Below are positions 36,426-42,672 of a stretch of DNA of 64,000 bases, piece by piece. Below the pieces are notes generated by a model. The model searched no databases, was not told where the DNA came from, and saw only the letters and a program-made list of their open reading frames with translations. The translations under genes and the position numbers were made by a program. Each line of letters starts with the position of its first letter. Positions within the stretch are counted from its first letter, which is position 1. The stretch covers positions 2,304,001 through 2,368,000 of the forward strand of contig OY761158.1 in NCBI GenBank assembly GCA_963664405.1. The letters run 5' to 3'. This DNA is from Thermoanaerobaculia bacterium (GTDB taxonomy: Bacteria > Acidobacteriota > Thermoanaerobaculia > Multivoradales > Multivoraceae).

Positions 36426-37903
36426 TCGAAGGCATTCTTCAGGGCCTCGCCACCGCTCTCCAGCCCCTAAACCTGGCGATGGTGGTCCTGGGCTGCGGCG
36501 CCGGCACCGTCATCGGCATGATCCCTGGGCTCGGACCCATCACCGCCATCGCCATCATGATCCCGATCACCTACGGCCTCGATCCGGCCACGGGACTCAT
36601 TCTCATGGCCGGGGTCTATTACGGCGCCATCTTCGGCGGCTCGACCTCATCGATCCTGCTCAACGCTCCAGGGGTCGCAGGCACTGTCGCCACGGCTTTC
36701 GACGGCCATCCTCTGGCGCTCAAAGGAGAGGCCGGAAAGGCCCTGGCAGTGGCCGCCTACGCCTCGTTCACAGGCGGCACACTTGCCGCAGTTTTTCTAC
36801 TCGTCGCCGCTCCTGCGCTCGCCGCGGTTGCCCTCGGCTTTCATTCTCCTGACTACTTCGCGCTCGCCGTCCTCGCTCTCGCCTCGGTGTCGGCATTCGC
36901 CGGCGGTGGCCAGCTACTCAAGGCGGCGATGATGGTCGTCGTCGGCCTGATGCTGGCAACCGTGGGGCAAGACACTTCCTCCGATGTCCCTCGCTTCACC
37001 TTTGGCAGCGTGGAGCTTCTCGACGGGCTCAGTTTTCTGCTTCTAGCCATGGCGACCTTCGCCCTTTCCGAAGCGCTTCTCGCCGTCCTCCGCCCCGAGC
37101 GCTGGGGAGCGGCAAGCAAGGCGCCATCCGGACTCGCGTCGCTCCGCTTGAGCCGAAGCGAGGTGCGCGAGGTGGCAGCTCCCATCGCACGCTCTTCGGT
37201 GCTCGGATTCCTGGTTGGGGTCCTGCCCGGCGCTGGTGCGACTCTGGCATCGTTCCTCGCCTACGCGATGGAGCGCAATCTGGCCCCCGAAAGTGAGCAG
37301 AAGAAGTTCGGCACCGGTTCGCTTCGCGGCCTCGCCGCACCCGAAGCCGCCAATAACGCCGCCTGCTCGGGCTCTTTCGTGCCGCTCCTCACCCTGGGCG
37401 TGCCGGGCTCGGCGACAACCGCGATCATGCTCGGCGCCCTGCTCTCACACGGCATCCAGCCGGGTCCGCGCCTCTTGGTCGATCGACCCGAGGTGTTCTG
37501 GTCGGTCATCGTTTCCATGTATCTGGGGAATGTGGTTTTACTGGTTCTCAACCTTCCTCTCATTCCCTGGCTCGCTCGGCTGCTTCAGGTGCCCCGCCCG
37601 ATCATGCTGCCGATGATCCTCTTCTTCTCGGTGATCGGCGTCTATCTCGTCTCCCTCAGCCCCTTCGACATTCTCCTCATGGTTGGTATCGGGCTCGCGG
37701 CTACTCTGCTGCGCCTGCTCGACTATCCTCTGCCACCACTTCTTCTCGCCTTCGTTCTCGGACCGATGCTGGAAGAGAACCTGCGCAGGTCGCTCATCCT
37801 CTACGACGGATCGTTCTCCTTCGTATGGCAGCGACCGACCACCCTGTCGATCCTGCTCCTCACCCTCGGCCTGTGCGCCTGGCGCCTCCGGCCTAGGTGT
37901 TGA
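36422..37903 (+). CDS. tctA: TctA permease (last codons supplied by the IS481 end)
   Basis: IGMIPGLG, YYGAIFGGS, APEAANNA, LTLGVPGS, PGP. Confidence 0.92.
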   Translation: MIEGILQGLATALQPLNLAMVVLGCGAGTVIGMIPGLGPITAIAIMIPITYGLDPATGLILMAGVYYGAIFGGSTSSILLNAPGVAGTVATAFDGHPLALKGEAGKALAVAAYASFTGGTLAAVFLLVAAPALAAVALGFHSPDYFALAVLALASVSAFAGGGQLLKAAMMVVVGLMLATVGQDTSSDVPRFTFGSVELLDGLSFLLLAMATFALSEALLAVLRPERWGAASKAPSGLASLRLSRSEVREVAAPIARSSVLGFLVGVLPGAGATLASFLAYAMERNLAPESEQKKFGTGSLRGLAAPEAANNAACSGSFVPLLTLGVPGSATTAIMLGALLSHGIQPGPRLLVDRPEVFWSVIVSMYLGNVVLLVLNLPLIPWLARLLQVPRPIMLPMILFFSVIGVYLVSLSPFDILLMVGIGLAATLLRLLDYPLPPLLLAFVLGPMLEENLRRSLILYDGSFSFVWQRPTTLSILLLTLGLCAWRLRPRC

Positions 37904-38095
37904 TTCCCACAGCGTTGTTCAGTTCGAGCCTGGCGTTAGGCGGTCGTCCGCCGAGGGCTGAGTGGGCTCGATGTTGGTTGTAGAAGTGGAGATATCTGGG
38001 TAAGAGATCGGAGCGCTCGCGCGAGGAGTGGAAGGTGAAGGCGTAGGCCCACTCTCGTTGGAGGGTTTGGATGAATCTCTCGGCTTTCCCGTTGG
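37898..38095 (-). mobile_element. IS481-family right-end remnant
   Basis: NGKAERFIQTLQREW...YN..RAHSALGG.PP...LNN C-terminus; terminal TGT at 37898 next to CCTAGG (NCTAGN-type target). Confidence 0.85.
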
Positions 38096-38386
38096 GCTCA
38101 ATGGTCGAATGCACCCGATACAGATTGTGAGCAACGACGTTTTCGGGTAACCCATCCGTTCCACCCGCTGTTGGGGCGTGAGTACGAGCTGGCTCACTAT
38201 CGCCAGTGCTGGGGCGAGGACCGGGTCTTCTACCTGGATGAATGCGAGGAGCTACGCTCCCTTCCAGCGCGTTGGACGAGTGCGGTGGCCGAGGACCCCG
38301 TGGTTGTCCTCTCCGCAGGCAGATCGATGTACCGCTTGGCCGACCTGCTCGAGCTCGCCAAGCTGACCCGGGAGAGCGAGCGATGA
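38096..38386 (+). CDS. DUF5372 (Y4bD/Y4pK-like) ORF lacking its own start codon
   Basis: The frame reads AQWSNAPDTDCEQRRFRVTHPFHPLLGREY...WGEDRV...LPARWT...LADLLEL. The first start-type codon (TTG 38171) lies after THPFHP. Confidence 0.7.
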   Translation, partial: AQWSNAPDTDCEQRRFRVTHPFHPLLGREYELAHYRQCWGEDRVFYLDECEELRSLPARWTSAVAEDPVVVLSAGRSMYRLADLLELAKLTRESER

Positions 38387-38420
38387 AGAGCTGCGCGAGG
38401 ACGGTTGAGGGGCACCGTGC

Positions 38421-38582
38421 GTAAAGGAGATTATGCCGTGAATGTAATCACAATTATGTCGGGAAGAGTGCCGGAGTGTGACCAGGAGTGTAGAGATAGG
38501 CCAATTTAATGCACGATCTATCGGTACTCTCTTGGTGGACACCCCTTGACAGAGGATCCATGAGAGGCATAATTAGAATTAC
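38421..38582. promoter_or_regulatory. element promoter with three GTAA-N5-ATTATGYC boxes
   Basis: Boxes at 38421-38437, 38444-38460 and inverted at 38566-38582. TTGACA 38546-38551, 16-nt spacer, CATAAT 38568-38573. Confidence 0.6.
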
Positions 38583-38601
38583 ATTCCATGAGGAGACGAT
38601 C

Positions 38602-39069
38602 ATGCCGCGACGCAGACCCGACCCGAAAGCCGAGGCCCTCCGTCAACGAGGGTGCCTTCATCCCCAGCCGGAGAAGGTCTCGGACGATTTGTTCACCTCG
38701 AGCGAGTTCTTCGACCCTCGAGACCTCGTGCAGGTCAAGTACGAGATGCTGCGCCGTGTCCGGGTGGACAGACACACGGTGAGCCGGAGCGCGGCAAGCT
38801 TCGGGTTGTCGCGCCCATCCTTCTACCACGCCCAGGTGGTTTACGAAGAAGGCGGCCTACCCGCGTTGCTGCCAAGAAAGCCGGGGCCGCGCCGCGCCCA
38901 CAAGCTATCCGAGGAGGTCGTCGAGGCCCTGCACGACAGGCTGGAGGGGGAGCCGGACGCAGATGCAACCGCCCTGGCCGAGTGGGTGCAGAAGCGCTTT
39001 GGCATCTCGATCCATCCGCGCAGCATTGAGCGAGCCCTGGCTCGCCAGGAAAAAAAACGCCGGCCATGA
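38602..39069 (+). CDS. helix-turn-helix protein of the recombinase element
   Basis: FFDPRDLVQVKYEMLR, FGLSRPSFY, GPRRAHKL, HPRSIERAL; RBS GAGGAG. Confidence 0.8.
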   Translation: MPRRRPDPKAEALRQRGCLHPQPEKVSDDLFTSSEFFDPRDLVQVKYEMLRRVRVDRHTVSRSAASFGLSRPSFYHAQVVYEEGGLPALLPRKPGPRRAHKLSEEVVEALHDRLEGEPDADATALAEWVQKRFGISIHPRSIERALARQEKKRRP

Positions 39070-39353
39070 GCGCGACACGCCAGCAGAACGCTCCGGCCCA
39101 TGTCGCTCGCTACGAGGAGCTCCGAGGACATGCGGCGAAGCGGCAGCTCCTATCGGTTCGGTTCGGCTTGGCCGTTCTCCTGCGACAAGGGCTGGCCGCT
39201 TGGGTTGAACAGGGGTCCAAGATGCCCGCGCCGACCCCGGCACCGTCCGCCGAGATAGCCAGGCCGTCCGCACTGCCTCACGATACGAGCGCGGATCTGA
39301 TCAACGTGCTGGCCGCCATGGCTCTCAGCCATCTACAGGAGAACCACGCATGA
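39066..39353 (+). CDS. small hypothetical protein of the recombinase element
   Basis: RYEELR..GLAVLLRQGLAAW; ATGA-coupled to both neighbours. Confidence 0.72.
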   Translation: MSATRQQNAPAHVARYEELRGHAAKRQLLSVRFGLAVLLRQGLAAWVEQGSKMPAPTPAPSAEIARPSALPHDTSADLINVLAAMALSHLQENHA

Positions 39354-41443
39354 GCGCAAGCGCCCACCAGAAAGTGACCCCAAGCCACCTGCGACGCGAT
39401 GCGTACCTGTATGTTCGCCAGTCGACCGTGCGCCAGGTGTTCGAGAATACGGAGAGCACGAGACGCCAGTACGCGTTGCGAGAGCGCGCGGTGGCGATGG
39501 GATGGCCCATCGAGCGAGTCATCGTGATCGACTCCGACCTGGGTAAGTCCGCAGCTTCCAGCGTCGACCGCGAGGGCTTTCAGAAGCTCGTCGGCGAGGT
39601 CGGTATGGGCCGAGCCGGGATCGTTCTCGGGCTGGAGGTTTCGCGCCTGGCACGCAATAGCACGGACTGGCATCGACTGCTGGAGATCTGCGCGCTGACC
39701 GACACGCTGATCCTTGACGAGGACGGGGTCTACAGCCCGAGTGATTTCAACGATCGCCTTCTGCTCGGGCTCAAGGGCACGATGAGCGAGGCGGAGCTTC
39801 ACGTGATGCGGGCTCGGCTGCGCGGAGGCATTCTGAATCAGGCGCGCCGAGGTGCGCTGCAAACCCCGTTACCCGTCGGCCTACTCTACGACCCGACCGG
39901 CAACGTGGTGTTAGATCCCGACGGCCAGGTCCAACGGAGCTTCGAGCACCTGTTCGAGACCTTCGAGCGTATGGGCTCGGCCTCGGCGACGGTCAAACAC
40001 TTCCGCGAGCAAGGCTTGCGGTTTCCGCGCCGGCCGCGCTTCGGCCCCCACAAGGGAGAGCTGTTGTGGGAGTCGTTGCGCCACTGGCGCGTCCTGAGGG
40101 TGCTGCACAATCCCCGCTACGCTGGCGCTTTCTGTTTCGGTCGCACTCACACGCAAAAGCGCGTCAACGGCACCATCGAGGTCAAGTCGCTTCCGCGTGA
40201 GGAGTGGACCGCGCTGTTGCTCGACGCGCACCCCGGTTACATTCCCTGGGAACAATTCGAAGAAAACCTGAGACGACTACGAGACAACGCCCAGGCCCAC
40301 GGCCGAGACCGGCGCAAGAGCCCACCGCGCGAGGGGCCAGCGCTGGTGCAGGGCTTGGTCCTCTGCGGCGTTTGTGGCCATCGGATGACGGTCCGCTATC
40401 ACACGCGCAGGGGCACTCAGTGGCCCGAGTACGTCTGCCAGCGCGAGGGCATCGACACCGCGACACCCAAGTGTCAGTCGATCCCGGGCAAGGGCATCGA
40501 TCGGGCCATCGGAGAGCTGCTTGTGGAGACGGTTACGCCTGTGACTCTGGAGGTTGCACTGAAAGTCCAGGTCGAGCTCGATGCACGGATCCACGAGGCC
40601 GATTCCCTGCGGCGCCAGCACGTACAGCGAGCTCGACAGGAGGCTGACTTGGCTCGGCGTCGCTTCATGGAGGTCGATCCGGGGAACCGCCTCGTGGTGG
40701 ATGTCCTCGAGGCCGAGTGGAACGAGAGGCTGCGCGGGCTGCACGACGCACAGGAGGAGCTCGAGCAGCGCCGCCAGCAAGATCACCAACAGCTCGGCGA
40801 CCAGCAACGAGAAGAGATCCTCGCCCTCGCCACCGACTTCCCGCGGTTGTGGAACGACCCGAAGACGCCTCAACGCGAGCGCAAGCGCATGGTGCGCTTG
40901 CTCATCGAGGACGTCACCTTGACGAAGGGCGACGAGATCGTTGTCGGTGTCCGCTTCCGAGGTGGCGCGACACGAAGTCTCAAACTGCCCATTCCGCCGA
41001 CAGCATGGGAGTTACGCCAAACCTCGAAACAGGTCGTTGCCGAGATTGATACCCTGCTTGATGACTACACCGAGGCCGAGATTGCGAGCATCCTCAACGA
41101 CAGAGGCCATCTCTCCGGAGAGGGCAAACGATTTCACGCCGGCATCGTCCGGCGACTGCGCCGTGACTACGACATCAAGAAGAGGTACGACCGACTGCGT
41201 GAGGGGGGAATGCTTACCCTCGAAGAGATGGCTGACCTACTGGGTGTCGCGACCCACACGGTGAAGACATGGCGCAACCACGGCCTGCTGCGTGCCCATG
41301 CCTACAACGACAAGAACGAGTGCCTCTACGAGCATCCCGGCGACGACCCGCCCGTCAAAATGCAGGGCCGAAAACTCTCGAAACGACGGCGCCGCCTCGA
41401 CGTCGAACCGAACCCTACGGAGGAGGTGCAGTGTGAAGCGTAG
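39350..41443 (+). CDS. large serine recombinase (resolvase + recombinase + Zn ribbon + C-terminal HTH)
   Basis: YVRQST catalytic Ser, DSDLGKS, EVSRLARN, LHNPRYAG, CGVCG..YVC..C; ends EEVQCEA. Confidence 0.93.
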   Translation: MSASAHQKVTPSHLRRDAYLYVRQSTVRQVFENTESTRRQYALRERAVAMGWPIERVIVIDSDLGKSAASSVDREGFQKLVGEVGMGRAGIVLGLEVSRLARNSTDWHRLLEICALTDTLILDEDGVYSPSDFNDRLLLGLKGTMSEAELHVMRARLRGGILNQARRGALQTPLPVGLLYDPTGNVVLDPDGQVQRSFEHLFETFERMGSASATVKHFREQGLRFPRRPRFGPHKGELLWESLRHWRVLRVLHNPRYAGAFCFGRTHTQKRVNGTIEVKSLPREEWTALLLDAHPGYIPWEQFEENLRRLRDNAQAHGRDRRKSPPREGPALVQGLVLCGVCGHRMTVRYHTRRGTQWPEYVCQREGIDTATPKCQSIPGKGIDRAIGELLVETVTPVTLEVALKVQVELDARIHEADSLRRQHVQRARQEADLARRRFMEVDPGNRLVVDVLEAEWNERLRGLHDAQEELEQRRQQDHQQLGDQQREEILALATDFPRLWNDPKTPQRERKRMVRLLIEDVTLTKGDEIVVGVRFRGGATRSLKLPIPPTAWELRQTSKQVVAEIDTLLDDYTEAEIASILNDRGHLSGEGKRFHAGIVRRLRRDYDIKKRYDRLREGGMLTLEEMADLLGVATHTVKTWRNHGLLRAHAYNDKNECLYEHPGDDPPVKMQGRKLSKRRRRLDVEPNPTEEVQCEA

Positions 41444-42213
41444 CCCTTGGTGCGAGGCCGGCCCCGGCGGGGCTCCTCAACATCCGGCGGCGGCGGATCC
41501 TGCTTCTTCGCCTCGGCCTCCAGCTCCGCCTTGGCCGCACGGATCTTCGCCAGACGCTGCTTCTTGTTCACCACCCAGTCCGGCAGCTCATCGTCGCGCT
41601 TGTCTTCGCCGAACTCCGAGTCCTCGGTTGTCGACGGCGTCGGCTCTCTCCAGCCACTCTGCGACTTGCGCCGCCAGCTCCGCCTCAGCCTTCTGCATCC
41701 GCGCGTAGCTCATCGCCTTGTGCTTCGAAGCGTTGGCGCGCACCTTCGTCCCGTCCAGAGCCACGTGACCCAAACGGACCAAACCCGCCCCTTGCGGCAC
41801 AGCTGCAGGACCTGCACGAACAGCTCCCCAAGCGCCTGCAAATGACGCTGACGGAACAAGTTGATCGTGCGAAAGTCCGGCTGCTGCAACGCCGTCACGG
41901 CCATGAAATCCACCCGCTGCTCGCAGGCCTGGGCCAGGCGACGAGACGAGTACACCCCTTGCGTGTAGCCGTACACCAGCAGCGCCGTCATCATCCTTGG
42001 GTCGTACGGAGGAAAACCACGCTCTTCCGTGTAGCTATCCAAAATACCCGACAGGTCCAGCGACTCACGCACCGTCTCCCGTACGAAATGCGCCACGTGG
42101 CCCGCAGACACCAGCTCCTGCACCGATGGCGGCAGCAACCAGATCTGATCCACATCCCACGATCGAAAGGTCTTAGCCATGCCCCAACCTAAACATACCC
42201 CTCGATGTCTTGG
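41444..42213 (-). pseudogene. IS1182-family transposase, frameshifted and 3'-truncated
   Basis: ATG 42180: LLPPS..PPYDPRMM..LLVYGY..SSRRL..PDFRTI; then LDGTKVRANASKHKAMSY and RLAKIRAAKAELE in other frames. Confidence 0.85.
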
Positions 42214-42353
42214 ACCTGCCCCTCTTCGCTCGCCAGACGAACTGCCTGCTTCTTGAACTCTCGATCGAATCGCCGTCGCTTCGAACTCATTCGAACACCT
42301 CCTCGGCCCATTCTCAGGCCAATCTCGGTGTCCACCAGACCCGCTACGGCTCA
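42214..42353 (-). mobile_element. IS3-family left-end fragment
   Basis: 5'-TGAGCCGTAGCGGG end and orfA start MSSKRRRFDREFK; 42217-42353 matches 47001-47137 at 134 of 137 nt. Confidence 0.85.
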
Positions 42354-42450
42354 AGGTGCCCTCCGCGAACTCACCCGTTTCTAGAAAGTGATCTCGCGCC
42401 TCGTTGATGGCGTAGGGATCGAGCTCGCCGTGCAGCTCATGGAACCGACG
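42354..42450 (-). repeat. diverged duplicate of 45723-45819 (unknown protein fragment)
   Basis: Both encode LHGELDP..INEARDHFLET.EFAEGT. Confidence 0.8.
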
Positions 42451-42672
42451 TACTGAAACTGCCAAAACGCCTCTTCGAAGCCAACTAAGCGCGGTTTCTC
42501 GTAACCGGTAACACGGGGCGACGGCTCGCAGCGATGCCGAGGTAGCGGAGTTGAAGCACCGCCGAGATCTGCTGGGCAGGTACTTCAGCGAGGAGAAGTA
42601 AAGAGCGGCGACATCCCTGGTGCCATTGTACGAAGAGCTCGTCGCAGAGCTGCGGCAAGCGCTCATCCCGTC

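What the first reader, a model, noticed from the sequence alone, without database searches (positions are those of the whole stretch)
38096..41443. Serine-recombinase element whose excision would fuse the recombinase in frame to a start-less DUF5372 ORF
Seen in sequence: the first ORF of the element (…FRVTHPFHPL…WGEDRV…) has no ATG/GTG/TTG upstream of the THPFHP motif. Its frame is open to the left boundary (GCT CAA TGG TCG AAT GCA CCC from 38096, where IS481 homology stops), and a stop lies at 38072. The recombinase ends at the right boundary as GAG GTG CAG TGT GAA GCG TAG. Both ends carry GC at codon positions 1-2 (41438-41439 and 38096-38097). Joining them gives …EVQCEA-QWSNAPDTDCEQRRFRVTHPFHP…, one ORF of about 790 aa, with inverted GGTGCA/TGCACC motifs either side of the junction. 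Established: serine recombinases exchange strands at a 2-bp core and usually need a directionality factor. Inference: the integrated form makes the short recombinase and the circle makes a recombinase-DUF5372 fusion, which would be a DNA-state-dependent switch between excision and integration. Caveats: the inverted motifs are not symmetric about the GC (7 vs 12 nt), and a frame match alone has a 1-in-3 chance.
Basis: partly seen in the sequence, partly recalled or inferred. Interest (0 to 1): 0.87.

Follow-up and report, generated by a model that had tools for sequence, protein, structure and literature searches.

The report
Transposase-hunting recombinase element with split gene
This is a small mobile element, moved by a serine recombinase, that inserts into the transposase genes of other jumping genes; its start-less first gene is probably completed only when the element loops out as a circle, but it is not fused to the recombinase.

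Summary
The start-less DUF5372 ORF is real, but the proposed ends are not. Five near-identical copies in this genome place the ends at a TT core (38092-93 and 41447-48). The recombinase stop TAG (41441-43) therefore stays inside the element, and the DUF5372 frame is +1 relative to the recombinase. The in-frame fusion is refuted.

A different junction effect is supported by 80 related loci from many phyla.
- The DUF5372 frame has 0 stops between core and domain in 67 unique left ends (29 expected).
- 35 of 73 left ends have no start codon there.
- A conserved A/GTG, preceded by GAGG, lies 14 nt inside the right end and is in frame across the core (window GTG 41433). The gene would then be whole only in the excised circle.

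A complex model places DUF5372 at the zinc-ribbon/coiled-coil junction of the recombinase, where directionality factors bind (score 0.67, best control 0.00).

The family inserts into transposase genes. 46 of 59 flanks begin N/K-x-x-x-E of rve-type DDE enzymes; others are IS110, IS91 or HNH genes.

No circle junction was seen in contigs or metagenomes. No searched paper mentions DUF5372.

The parts
38092..38093 (+). left copy of the TT crossover core (attL centre)
   Evidence: Identity among the five genomic copies begins here. A contig branch point lies at 38092.
38094..38119 (+). left arm of the element's attachment site: GGGCTCAATGGTCGAA (16 nt), then TGCACC (38110-15), then CGAT
   Evidence: Conserved in 80 related loci. 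Consensus.
38093..38386 (+). DUF5372 ORF body: 97 codons read from the second T of the core, stop TGA 38384-86. There is no start codon. TGG at 38102-04 stands where homologues have ATG, TTG, CTG or other codons; GTA at 38147-49 stands where some have GTG.
   Evidence: Intact in all five copies.
38440..38586 (+). regulatory region: 19-nt inverted repeat (38440-58 and 38568-86) and promoter-like TTGACA-16-CATAAT (38546-73) in front of the HTH gene
   Evidence: consensus scans only.
38602..39069 (+). ORF2, a 155-aa helix-turn-helix protein (HTH_32/29/28). It resembles the N-terminal HTH of IS630/IS481/ISNCY transposases, below cut-off. Its stop overlaps the ORF3 start (ATGA).
39066..39353 (+). 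ORF3, 95 aa, no family. Its stop overlaps the recombinase start (ATGA).
   Evidence: The pNGR234a homologue is annotated 'transposase'.
39350..41443 (+). large serine recombinase, 697 aa: catalytic domain, recombinase domain, zinc ribbon with coiled-coil hairpin (helices 383-441 and 447-478), and a C-terminal helical HTH-like domain
41419..41448 (+). right arm of the attachment site and the proposed 5' mini-exon of DUF5372: GGAGGAGG (41419-26), GGTGCA (41425-30), GTG start (41433-35), then AAG CGT AGC CCT T running into the TT core (41447-48). The recombinase TAG (41441-43) lies inside it in another frame.
37893..38093 (-). 3' part of the target IS481-type transposase gene (NGKAERFIQTLQREW...), cut at the AA of the Asn codon four codons before the catalytic-motif E
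41449..41457 (-). the only remnant of the 5' side of the IS481 target (codons for P-R-T). Beyond it lies an IS1182-like transposase pseudogene joined at a short shared stretch.

Best explanation
Window 38092-41448 is one of five copies of a 3,355-bp transposable element. It is moved by a large serine recombinase that exchanges strands at a TT core.

The four genes are DUF5372, an HTH protein, ORF3 and the recombinase. The last three form a translationally coupled operon driven from a promoter at about 38546.

The element, like its relatives in many phyla, inserts into the transposase genes of other insertion sequences. Here the targets are rve-type DDE enzymes. The element lies antisense, at the AA of the N/K codon four codons before the catalytic-motif glutamate (N/K-x-x-x-E-R). 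Its attachment site is GGTGCA-16 nt-TT-16 nt-TGCACC.

The attachment site lies inside the DUF5372 gene. The ribosome-binding-like GAGG, the start codon (GTG 41433) and five codons are at the right end. The remaining 97 codons begin at the core at the left end.

Integrated copies therefore carry a start-less, promoter-less DUF5372 body. Only the excised circle, or a head-to-tail junction, has the whole 102-codon gene, placed as the last cistron behind the recombinase.

DUF5372 is a small beta-barrel with a C-terminal helix. It is predicted to bind the recombinase at the zinc-ribbon/coiled-coil junction, where recombination directionality factors act. It would thus reset the direction of the recombinase according to the DNA state.

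Shown: the ends, the core, the copies, the targets, an open frame up to the core, and the lack of a conserved internal start. Inferred: translation from the right-end start, binding, and above all which reaction DUF5372 favours. My guess is that it permits integration of the circle or counteracts an excision factor.
For: Ends and core. Five copies are 99-100% identical from TT|GGGCTC to GCCC|TT, with different flanks. Loose ends lie at 38092 and 41448/49. The core co-varies at both ends in relatives: AT/AT in L056, L058 and L061; CT/CT in L031; GA/GA in L081; AA/AA in L085.

No fusion. The TAG is internal and the frame offset is +1. In relatives the recombinase stop is a TAG/TAA before the core, a TGA overlapping the A/GTG, or a TGA upstream of GGTGCA.

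Split gene.
- In 67 unique left ends there are 0 stops in the DUF frame over the 20 codons between core and HPFHP. Column composition predicts 29.4 (Poisson 1.7e-13). The other frames have 58 and 76.
- 35 of 73 non-redundant left ends have no ATG/GTG/TTG there. Of these, reading into the flank meets a stop first in 21, a start first in 10, and the contig end in 4.
- The geometry A/GTG + 11 nt + core is fixed. The in-silico junction ORF is open through HPFHP in 41 of 44 loci with both ends as printed. L079 is also open once its core is set correctly.
- GAGG at -10 to -7 is near-invariant in 36 unique right ends, and the first start base is A in 18 and G in 18.
- An nhmmer search that did not require a start found 5 further right ends with ATG/GTG and 1 (L080) with CAG.
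- The distant pNGR234a copy has the same geometry, with the recombinase TGA overlapping GTGA.
- All five copies keep the ORF intact despite about 1% divergence and no start.

Binding. ipSAE was 0.67, 0.67 and 0.70, and the best of 3 controls was 0.00. That mark was reached by 58 of 80 solved complexes and 2 of 110 mismatched pairs. Runs agree in at least 69% of contacts, and partner pLDDT is at least 66. The interface covers recombinase residues 338-343, 394-414, 482-518 and 533-541, which are the zinc ribbon and the feet of the coiled coil in the model. Verified directionality factors are predicted to bind at that junction (passages of PMC12286644).

Targets. 46 of 59 antisense left-flank peptides begin [N/K]xxxE (43 distinct). 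Three are IS110-like and four HNH-like. Pfam hits on the left flanks: rve_3 19, Mu-transpos_C_2 13, rve_2 6, DEDD_Tnp_IS110 3, HNH 3. On the right flanks: rve 7. L089 sits in an IS91 gene (Y2_Tnp, Zn_Tnp_IS91).
Against: No circle or tandem junction was observed.
- No joint was found in Logan contigs of 4 runs. These cannot show rare forms, and no raw reads were available.
- A junction pattern gave 0 hits in metagenome contigs. That pattern would match only 14 of 38 in-silico junctions.
- There were 0 hits in the own genome, and the 4 hits in viral contigs were unrelated.
- None of about 55 inspected database homologues begins with the predicted junction N-terminus.

The frame relation, the A/GTG and the GAGG all lie inside the recombinase binding site. 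That site has fixed spacing and an RGGTGCA motif on both arms. Their conservation is therefore not independent evidence of translation.

Many homologues have ATG or TTG at the window's W codon, or GTG at the V of VTHPFHP, and are annotated from there.

Exceptions: L057 has a 1-nt shift, L073 has an odd right end with a stop, L083 and L092 have odd spacing, and L080 has no A/GTG.

A canonical directionality factor made only after excision would block integration, so the functional logic is not settled. The complex model is a prediction that used my own alignments.
Confidence: 0.6

Rival explanations
1. One reading: excision at a GC core joins the recombinase (minus its last residue and stop) in frame to DUF5372, giving a fusion protein of about 790 aa in the circle.
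For: The ORF is open to the boundary and has no start. With the assumed ends the frames would match.
Against: Five copies place the core at TT 38092-93 and 41447-48, so the TAG 41441-43 is retained. The true junction puts DUF5372 in the +1 frame relative to the recombinase. Relatives end the recombinase in other frames and positions.
Confidence: 0.02
2. DUF5372 is an ordinary gene with its own start inside the left end: ATG/TTG at the codon that is TGG 38102-04 here, or GTG at the V of VTHPFHP. The lineage in this genome lost that start by a point change and carries a silent or weakly expressed copy. The open junction frame is a by-product of attachment-site constraints.
For: Most of the best 120 database homologues are 94 aa and begin M-SNAPD or L-SNAPD. 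Others are 79 aa and begin V/M-THPFHP. TGG is one change from TTG. The conserved A/GTG and GAGG lie within the symmetric recombinase site.
Against: That codon is variable among 80 loci (ATG, TTG, CTG, TCG, CTT, CCG, TGG and others), and 35 of 73 left ends have no start at all. Stops are absent right up to the core, against 29.4 expected; a start 8 nt or 54 nt inside would not require this. A start 8 nt from the end leaves no room for a ribosome-binding site or promoter inside the element. Three sub-lineages in this genome, about 1% apart, all keep the start-less ORF intact.
Confidence: 0.2
3. DUF5372 is expressed in the integrated state by transcription and translation entering from the flank (the antisense strand of the target transposase gene). 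Its level would then depend on the insertion site.
For: Gene callers often extend homologues into the flank (M-D-W, M-R-W, M-H-W and longer). For some codon choices, N-A/P-Y targets give an in-frame ATG two codons before the core (my reading). Reading into the flank, a start precedes any stop in 18 of 73 left ends.
Against: A stop comes first in 45 of 73 left ends, including the window (TGA seven codons out). Flank starts lie at very different distances. Target families differ (rve, IS110, IS91, HNH) and, in L089, so does the orientation. Nothing upstream is therefore conserved.
Confidence: 0.08

Closest known systems
Large serine recombinase transposons (TnpX of Tn4451, TndX of Tn5397) and 'multi-targeting' LSRs
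   Same: A large serine recombinase moves a discrete element through a circle with a 2-bp core, and several copies or targets occur per genome. Durrant et al. describe multi-targeting LSRs with a TT core and the TndX-like clade (PMC10083194, passages). That the Tn4451 circle junction makes a promoter for tnpX is my recollection, not from a call.
   Different: This recombinase lacks DUF4368, which those passages associate with that clade. It has a C-terminal HTH-like domain. It travels with DUF5372, an HTH protein and ORF3. Its targets are conserved motifs of transposase genes, not short AT-rich sites. The junction would complete a coding sequence, not only a promoter.
Phage serine integrases with recombination directionality factors (phiC31 gp3, SPbeta SprB, Bxb1 gp47)
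   Same: The domain order is the same, including a zinc ribbon with an inserted coiled coil. A small unrelated protein is predicted to sit at the zinc-domain/coiled-coil junction, as reported for verified factors (PMC12286644 passages; PMC5814800 title and abstract start). Conserved attB bases lie nearer the core (-15 to -8) than the attP motif (17-22 nt).
   Different: The factor gene is cut by the attachment site, so it cannot be made from the integrated state, which is where a canonical factor is needed. Its direction of action is unknown. No activity has been tested.
SSV-type ('suicidal') tyrosine integrases of archaeal viruses and plasmids
   Same: The element's recombination site lies inside one of its own genes. 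Integration splits the gene, and only the circle has it whole (PMC7253208, abstract start in the listing).
   Different: There the split gene is the tyrosine integrase itself, in archaea. Here it is an accessory protein of a serine recombinase, in bacteria, and only five codons plus the translation signals are separated.
Circle-junction promoters of IS3, IS30 and IS110 family elements, and circularisation-dependent expression in Tn916
   Same: Expression of a transposition function depends on joining the two ends. This comparison is recalled, not from a call; the listing shows related IS110 papers.
   Different: Those junctions assemble a promoter or allow read-through transcription. Here the start codon and the body of an ORF would be joined.
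XisF (fdxN element excision recombinase)
   Same: It is the best NCBIfam match of the recombinase (E 2.2e-21, 76 bits). That XisF needs accessory proteins XisH and XisI is recalled.
   Different: The score is far below the 375-bit cut-off, so this is not an XisF equivalog. The partners and targets are different.

Membership tests
Large serine recombinase (serine integrase/transposase) | N-terminal resolvase-type catalytic domain with the serine nucleophile | tested here: met
   PF00239, residues 18-169, E 2.5e-17. The Y-x-R-Q-S-T block is invariant in 28 relatives, including S25. PDB resolvase-domain match 3guv, E 3.4e-7.
Large serine recombinase (serine integrase/transposase) | Recombinase domain followed by a zinc ribbon domain with an inserted coiled coil | tested here: met
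   PF07508 at 199-312 and PF13408 at 334-389. The model shows strands 337-379, helices 383-441 and 447-478, and strands 519-547.
Large serine recombinase (serine integrase/transposase) | Identical 2-bp crossover core at both element ends, with no target duplication beyond it | tested here: met
   TT at both ends of all five copies. Co-varying AT, CT, GA and AA cores occur in relatives.
Large serine recombinase (serine integrase/transposase) | Catalysis of attP x attB and attL x attR recombination | not testable with these tools
   Only indirect evidence: five copies at different sites.
Recombination directionality factor (functional class, no common fold) | Binds the cognate recombinase at the zinc-domain/coiled-coil junction | tested here: inconclusive
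   A prediction only. ipSAE 0.67, best control 0.00; the mark was reached by 58 of 80 solved complexes and 2 of 110 mismatched pairs; at least 69% contact agreement; partner pLDDT at least 66. The interface fits the criterion quoted from PMC12286644.
Recombination directionality factor (functional class, no common fold) | Switches the favoured reaction (stimulates attL x attR, inhibits attP x attB) | not testable with these tools
Circle-only expression argues against the canonical sign of the effect (inference).
DUF5372 (PF17342) | Match above the Pfam gathering score | tested here: met
   73.1 bits against a cut-off of 25. There are 5 hits in the own genome, all in the element copies.
Insertion sequence / transposon in the operational sense | Several near-identical copies with defined ends in unrelated flanks | tested here: met
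   Five copies of 3,352-3,355 bp with four different right flanks.
Gene split by its own attachment site (SSV-type logic) | Crossover point lies inside an ORF that is whole only in the circular form | tested here: inconclusive
   The ORF is open to the core in 73 of 73 left ends, and a conserved in-frame start lies at the right end. No junction molecule or protein was observed.

The most novel reading that the evidence does not exclude
DUF5372 elements would be a widespread, undescribed class of hyperparasitic mobile DNA: serine-recombinase transposons that home into the catalytic-motif codons of other elements' transposase genes (rve DDE, IS110, IS91, HNH). They would carry a self-resetting directionality switch. 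The gene for the recombinase-binding factor is cut by attP, so the factor exists only while the element is a free circle, and this tells the recombinase whether to integrate or excise.
Probability: 0.4. Interest if true: 0.88.

Novelty: new variant of a known kind. Interest (0 to 1): 0.8.

Why it matters
Three points make this worth a bench test.

1. It gives DUF5372 a first concrete, testable role. The family is found in many phyla (271 confirmed stretches in one scan of species genomes) and on rhizobial and Burkholderia plasmids, and no paper in the searched library mentions it. The proposed role is a partner of a large serine recombinase at the site that sets reaction direction.

2. If the gene is whole only in the circle, this would be a bacterial, serine-recombinase counterpart of the archaeal split-integrase principle. 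It would also be a simple way for DNA topology to control recombination direction, which is of interest for recombinase-based genome engineering.

3. Insertion at one homologous position in many unrelated transposase genes means a mobile element that disables other mobile elements and uses them as safe, multi-copy, horizontally travelling landing sites. That bears on IS dynamics and on how a recombinase reads a degenerate, protein-motif-shaped DNA target.

Tried and rejected
In-frame recombinase fusion: rejected on the copy alignment.

Direct search for a circle or tandem junction:
- Logan contigs of runs X1, X2, X3 and X6 showed no joint, only flank branch points. All 24 listed runs are kept as contigs, so rare circles cannot be seen.
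- A degenerate junction pattern gave 0 matches in the 92 loci then held and 0 in metagenome contigs. A script showed it would match only 14 of 38 in-silico junctions.
- A looser fixed-spacing pattern, which matches 26 of 38, gave 119 matches in metagenome contigs.
- A third pattern gave 4 unrelated AT-rich hits in viral contigs.
- The own genome gave 0.
None of this is evidence for or against circles.

Fold search of the DUF5372 model against the PDB: only weak SH3/KOW-like barrel hits, best E 7.7e-3 (ribosomal eS4, NdhS). No functional lead.

I first read the window copy as a hybrid of two insertion sites (IS481 left, IS1182 right). Rejected: 9 nt of IS481 remain right of the core, and the join to the IS1182-like gene lies at a short shared stretch.

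Literature:
- 'DUF5372' gave 0 papers.
- Searches on serine recombinases with transposase-gene targets or circular intermediates found nothing on this family.
- The y4b/y4p gene names of pNGR234a, which I recalled, gave only unrelated hits.
- The supplements of Durrant et al. (PMC10083194) and of PMC12286644 could list such recombinases or partners. Supplements are closed and I did not see them.

I could not test ORF2 or ORF3 as alternative partners of the recombinase, because only one complex job is allowed.

Full report
WHAT IS IN THE WINDOW. Between 38072 and 41443 there are four plus-strand ORFs.
- A DUF5372 ORF (Pfam E 1.9e-20). It is open from a TGA at 38072 and has no ATG, GTG or TTG before its conserved THPFHP motif.
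- A 155-aa helix-turn-helix protein (38602-39069).
- A 95-aa ORF without family (39066-39353).
- A 697-aa large serine recombinase (39350-41443) ending EVQCEA-TAG.
The stops of ORF2 and ORF3 overlap the next start as ATGA. A promoter-like TTGACA-16-CATAAT (38546-73) and a 19-nt inverted repeat lie in front of ORF2.

THE ENDS. The genome (one contig of 6.78 Mb) holds five copies, 99-100% identical. Aligned with their flanks, they are identical from TT|GGGCTCAATGG to GCGTAGCCC|TT and unrelated outside. In window coordinates the TT cores are 38092-93 and 41447-48, and the element is 3,355 bp with one core. Branch points of public contigs at 38092 and 41448/49 agree.

Three things follow.
- The recombinase TAG (41441-43) lies inside the element and stays in any circle.
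- The DUF5372 frame is +1 relative to the recombinase.
The in-frame fusion of about 790 aa is refuted.

RELATIVES. A search with the DUF5372 ORF gave 317 homologues. A scan of one genome per species gave 271 confirmed stretches, of which 80 loci from many phyla were kept. The same four-gene element sits on many rhizobial and Burkholderia plasmids: 530 plasmid records match the recombinase. One is pNGR234a, where it is annotated DUF5372 / HTH / 'transposase' / recombinase.

Across these loci the geometry is fixed. The right end reads GAGGTGCA-RT-[A/G]TG, then 11 nt, then the core. The left end reads core, 16 nt, TGCACC-like, with the H codon of HPFHP 59 nt after the core. The core is usually TT. 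Where it differs, it differs at both ends (AT, CT, GA, AA), as expected for a serine recombinase.

THE START PROBLEM.
- Database homologues are mostly annotated from an ATG or TTG at the codon that is TGG 38102-04 here, or from a GTG at the V of VTHPFHP.
- Neither codon is conserved. The first is ATG, TTG, CTG, TCG, CTT, CCG or TGG. The second is a Val/Ile codon that is GTG in some loci.
- Of 73 non-redundant left ends, 35 have no ATG/GTG/TTG between core and HPFHP. Of these, reading on into the flank meets a stop first in 21, a start first in 10, and the contig end in 4.
- Yet the frame is under selection right up to the core. In 67 unique left ends with standard geometry there are 0 in-frame stops over 20 codons, where column composition predicts 29.4 (Poisson 1.7e-13). 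The other two frames have 58 and 76. Indels between TGCACC and the domain are -3 or +9 nt.
Ribosomes must therefore enter from upstream of the core, and the integrated flank offers nothing conserved there.

THE RIGHT END SUPPLIES WHAT IS MISSING.
- Fourteen nt before the core there is an A/GTG in all 36 unique right ends found by motif (A in 18, G in 18). It is preceded at -10 to -7 by a near-invariant GAGG.
- A profile search that did not demand a start found five more right ends with ATG/GTG and one (L080) with CAG.
- From this start the frame runs M-K-R-S-P, crosses the core (T|GG = W) and continues into the DUF5372 body.
- The in-silico junction ORF is open through HPFHP in 41 of 44 loci with both ends as printed. 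L079 is also open once its core is set correctly. L057 has a 1-nt shift and L073 has an odd right end.
- In relatives the recombinase stop sits in three different places. It is TAG/TAA just before the core, TGA overlapping the start as ATGA/GTGA (also in pNGR234a), or TGA 8-9 nt upstream of the start. All three arrangements are typical of coupled cistrons.
- In the window the start is GTG 41433-35 behind GGAGG 41422-26. The predicted product has 102 residues.
- All five copies fall into three sub-lineages about 1% apart. All lack an internal start and keep the ORF intact.

CAVEATS ON THE SPLIT GENE.
- The start, the GAGG and the fixed frame all lie within the symmetric recombinase site, which has RGGTGCA on both arms. 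Their conservation alone does not prove translation.
- No junction molecule was seen.
- None of about 55 inspected database proteins starts with the junction N-terminus.
I put the split-gene reading at about 0.6.

WHAT DUF5372 MAY DO.
- The model (pLDDT 79.7) has a disordered N-terminus, a seven-strand barrel and a C-terminal helix. PDB fold matches are weak.
- A complex model with the recombinase scored ipSAE 0.67, 0.67 and 0.70, against 0.00 for the best of three controls. That mark was reached by 58 of 80 solved complexes and 2 of 110 mismatched pairs. Contact agreement was at least 69% and partner pLDDT at least 66.
- The HPFHP motif and the C-terminal helix touch recombinase residues 338-343, 394-414, 482-518 and 533-541. 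In the recombinase model these are the zinc ribbon and the two feet of the coiled-coil hairpin.
- Passages of PMC12286644 state that verified directionality factors, though unrelated in fold, are predicted to bind at this junction.
- DUF5372 is thus a candidate directionality factor. The sign of its effect is open. A canonical factor, needed for excision, would be useless if made only after excision.
- My preferred inference, held weakly, is that it makes the circle competent for integration or counteracts another excision factor such as ORF2 or ORF3. An alternative is a canonical factor acting in trans on other copies.

TARGETS.
- In this genome, L002 sits in an IS481-type gene (RPYRPRT|NGKAERF), L004 in an IS21-type gene (ARGNE|KGRVERAIRF) and L005 in another rve gene (SPWQ|NPYAERVIGS). 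All are antisense.
- The window copy has the IS481 left side. On the right only 9 nt of IS481 remain before an IS1182-like pseudogene.
- Among 59 related loci with enough left flank, 46 antisense peptides begin [N/K]xxxE (43 distinct), 3 begin like IS110 transposases and 4 like HNH nucleases.
- Pfam finds rve_3 (19), Mu-transpos_C_2 (13), rve_2 (6), DEDD_Tnp_IS110 (3) and HNH (3) on the left flanks, and rve (7) on the right flanks.
- L089 lies, in sense orientation, in an IS91 transposase gene.
- The attB consensus keeps the antisense V-E-R codons at -15 to -8.
The family thus homes into conserved motifs of other mobile elements' enzymes.

COMPARISON AND NOVELTY.
- The recombinase meets the sequence and core criteria of a large serine recombinase. 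It is not an XisF equivalog (76 bits against a 375-bit cut-off). It lacks DUF4368, which the passages of PMC10083194 associate with the multi-targeting clade.
- The split-gene logic resembles SSV-type integrases (PMC7253208, abstract start).
- Circle-dependent expression resembles IS junction promoters and Tn4451 or Tn916. That comparison is recalled, not from a call.
- No paper in the searched library names DUF5372. Searches for serine-recombinase elements that target transposase genes found none. Supplements were closed.
I rate it a new variant of a known kind with high interest.

Noticed in passing
L003 (G000:C1:3058113-3064473) against L004: L003 and L004 share the same IS21-type left flank (KGRVERAIRF). 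L003's right flank is an IS3-type gene (MSRKGDCWD|), so L003 is a true hybrid of two insertion sites. This suggests recombination between two element copies with loss of the reciprocal product.
   Followed up: partly
window 41449-42666 (minus strand): An IS1182-like transposase gene (DUF772) with frame breaks is joined to 9 nt of IS481 at a short shared stretch. The rest of the IS481 gene has been deleted. The IS481 relic exists only at the two places that carry the element, and these are 95% alike.
   Followed up: partly
window 38602-39066: The ORF2 HTH resembles the N-terminal DNA-binding part of IS630, IS481 and ISNCY transposases (NCBIfam, far below cut-off). IS481 and ISNCY are among the families the element inserts into. 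It could be a captured IS-end-binding domain or simply a repressor.
   Followed up: no
window 38453-38482 (minus strand) and 38440-38586: A weaker promoter-like site points leftwards, antisense to DUF5372, and overlaps one arm of the 19-nt inverted repeat. Copies L002 and L004 lack 3 nt (38598-600) just before the ORF2 start.
   Followed up: no
L056, L058, L061; L031-L035; L076, L089, L090, L078, L083: Subfamilies with other targets: IS110 transposase genes at M-E/Q-S/A-T-G-V-Y-W with an AT core, HNH nuclease genes in Spirochaetia, and IS91 genes (sense orientation in L089). Reading L078 and L083 as IS91 rests on recalled motifs; Pfam found nothing for them.
   Followed up: partly
L014, L022, L037, L039, L041, L054, L079 (contigs of 3.3-3.5 kb): Many metagenome-assembled contigs are almost exactly one element long and break at or within a few bases of the core, as expected for a multi-copy repeat. 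None closes into a circle.
   Followed up: partly
L093 (pNGR234a, NC_000914.2, 33.9-37.3 kb): A copy in this 1997-era reference plasmid is inserted in an ISNCY transposase gene at QA|KGRVER. ORF3 is annotated 'transposase' there, and DUF5372 is annotated from an internal GTG.
   Followed up: partly
alignment A5 (28 recombinases): Recombinase length is held at 685-700 aa in 34 of the 35 relatives measured (one, L091, is 674 aa) across phyla. The last 25 residues, which overlap the attachment site, are modelled as disordered.
   Followed up: no
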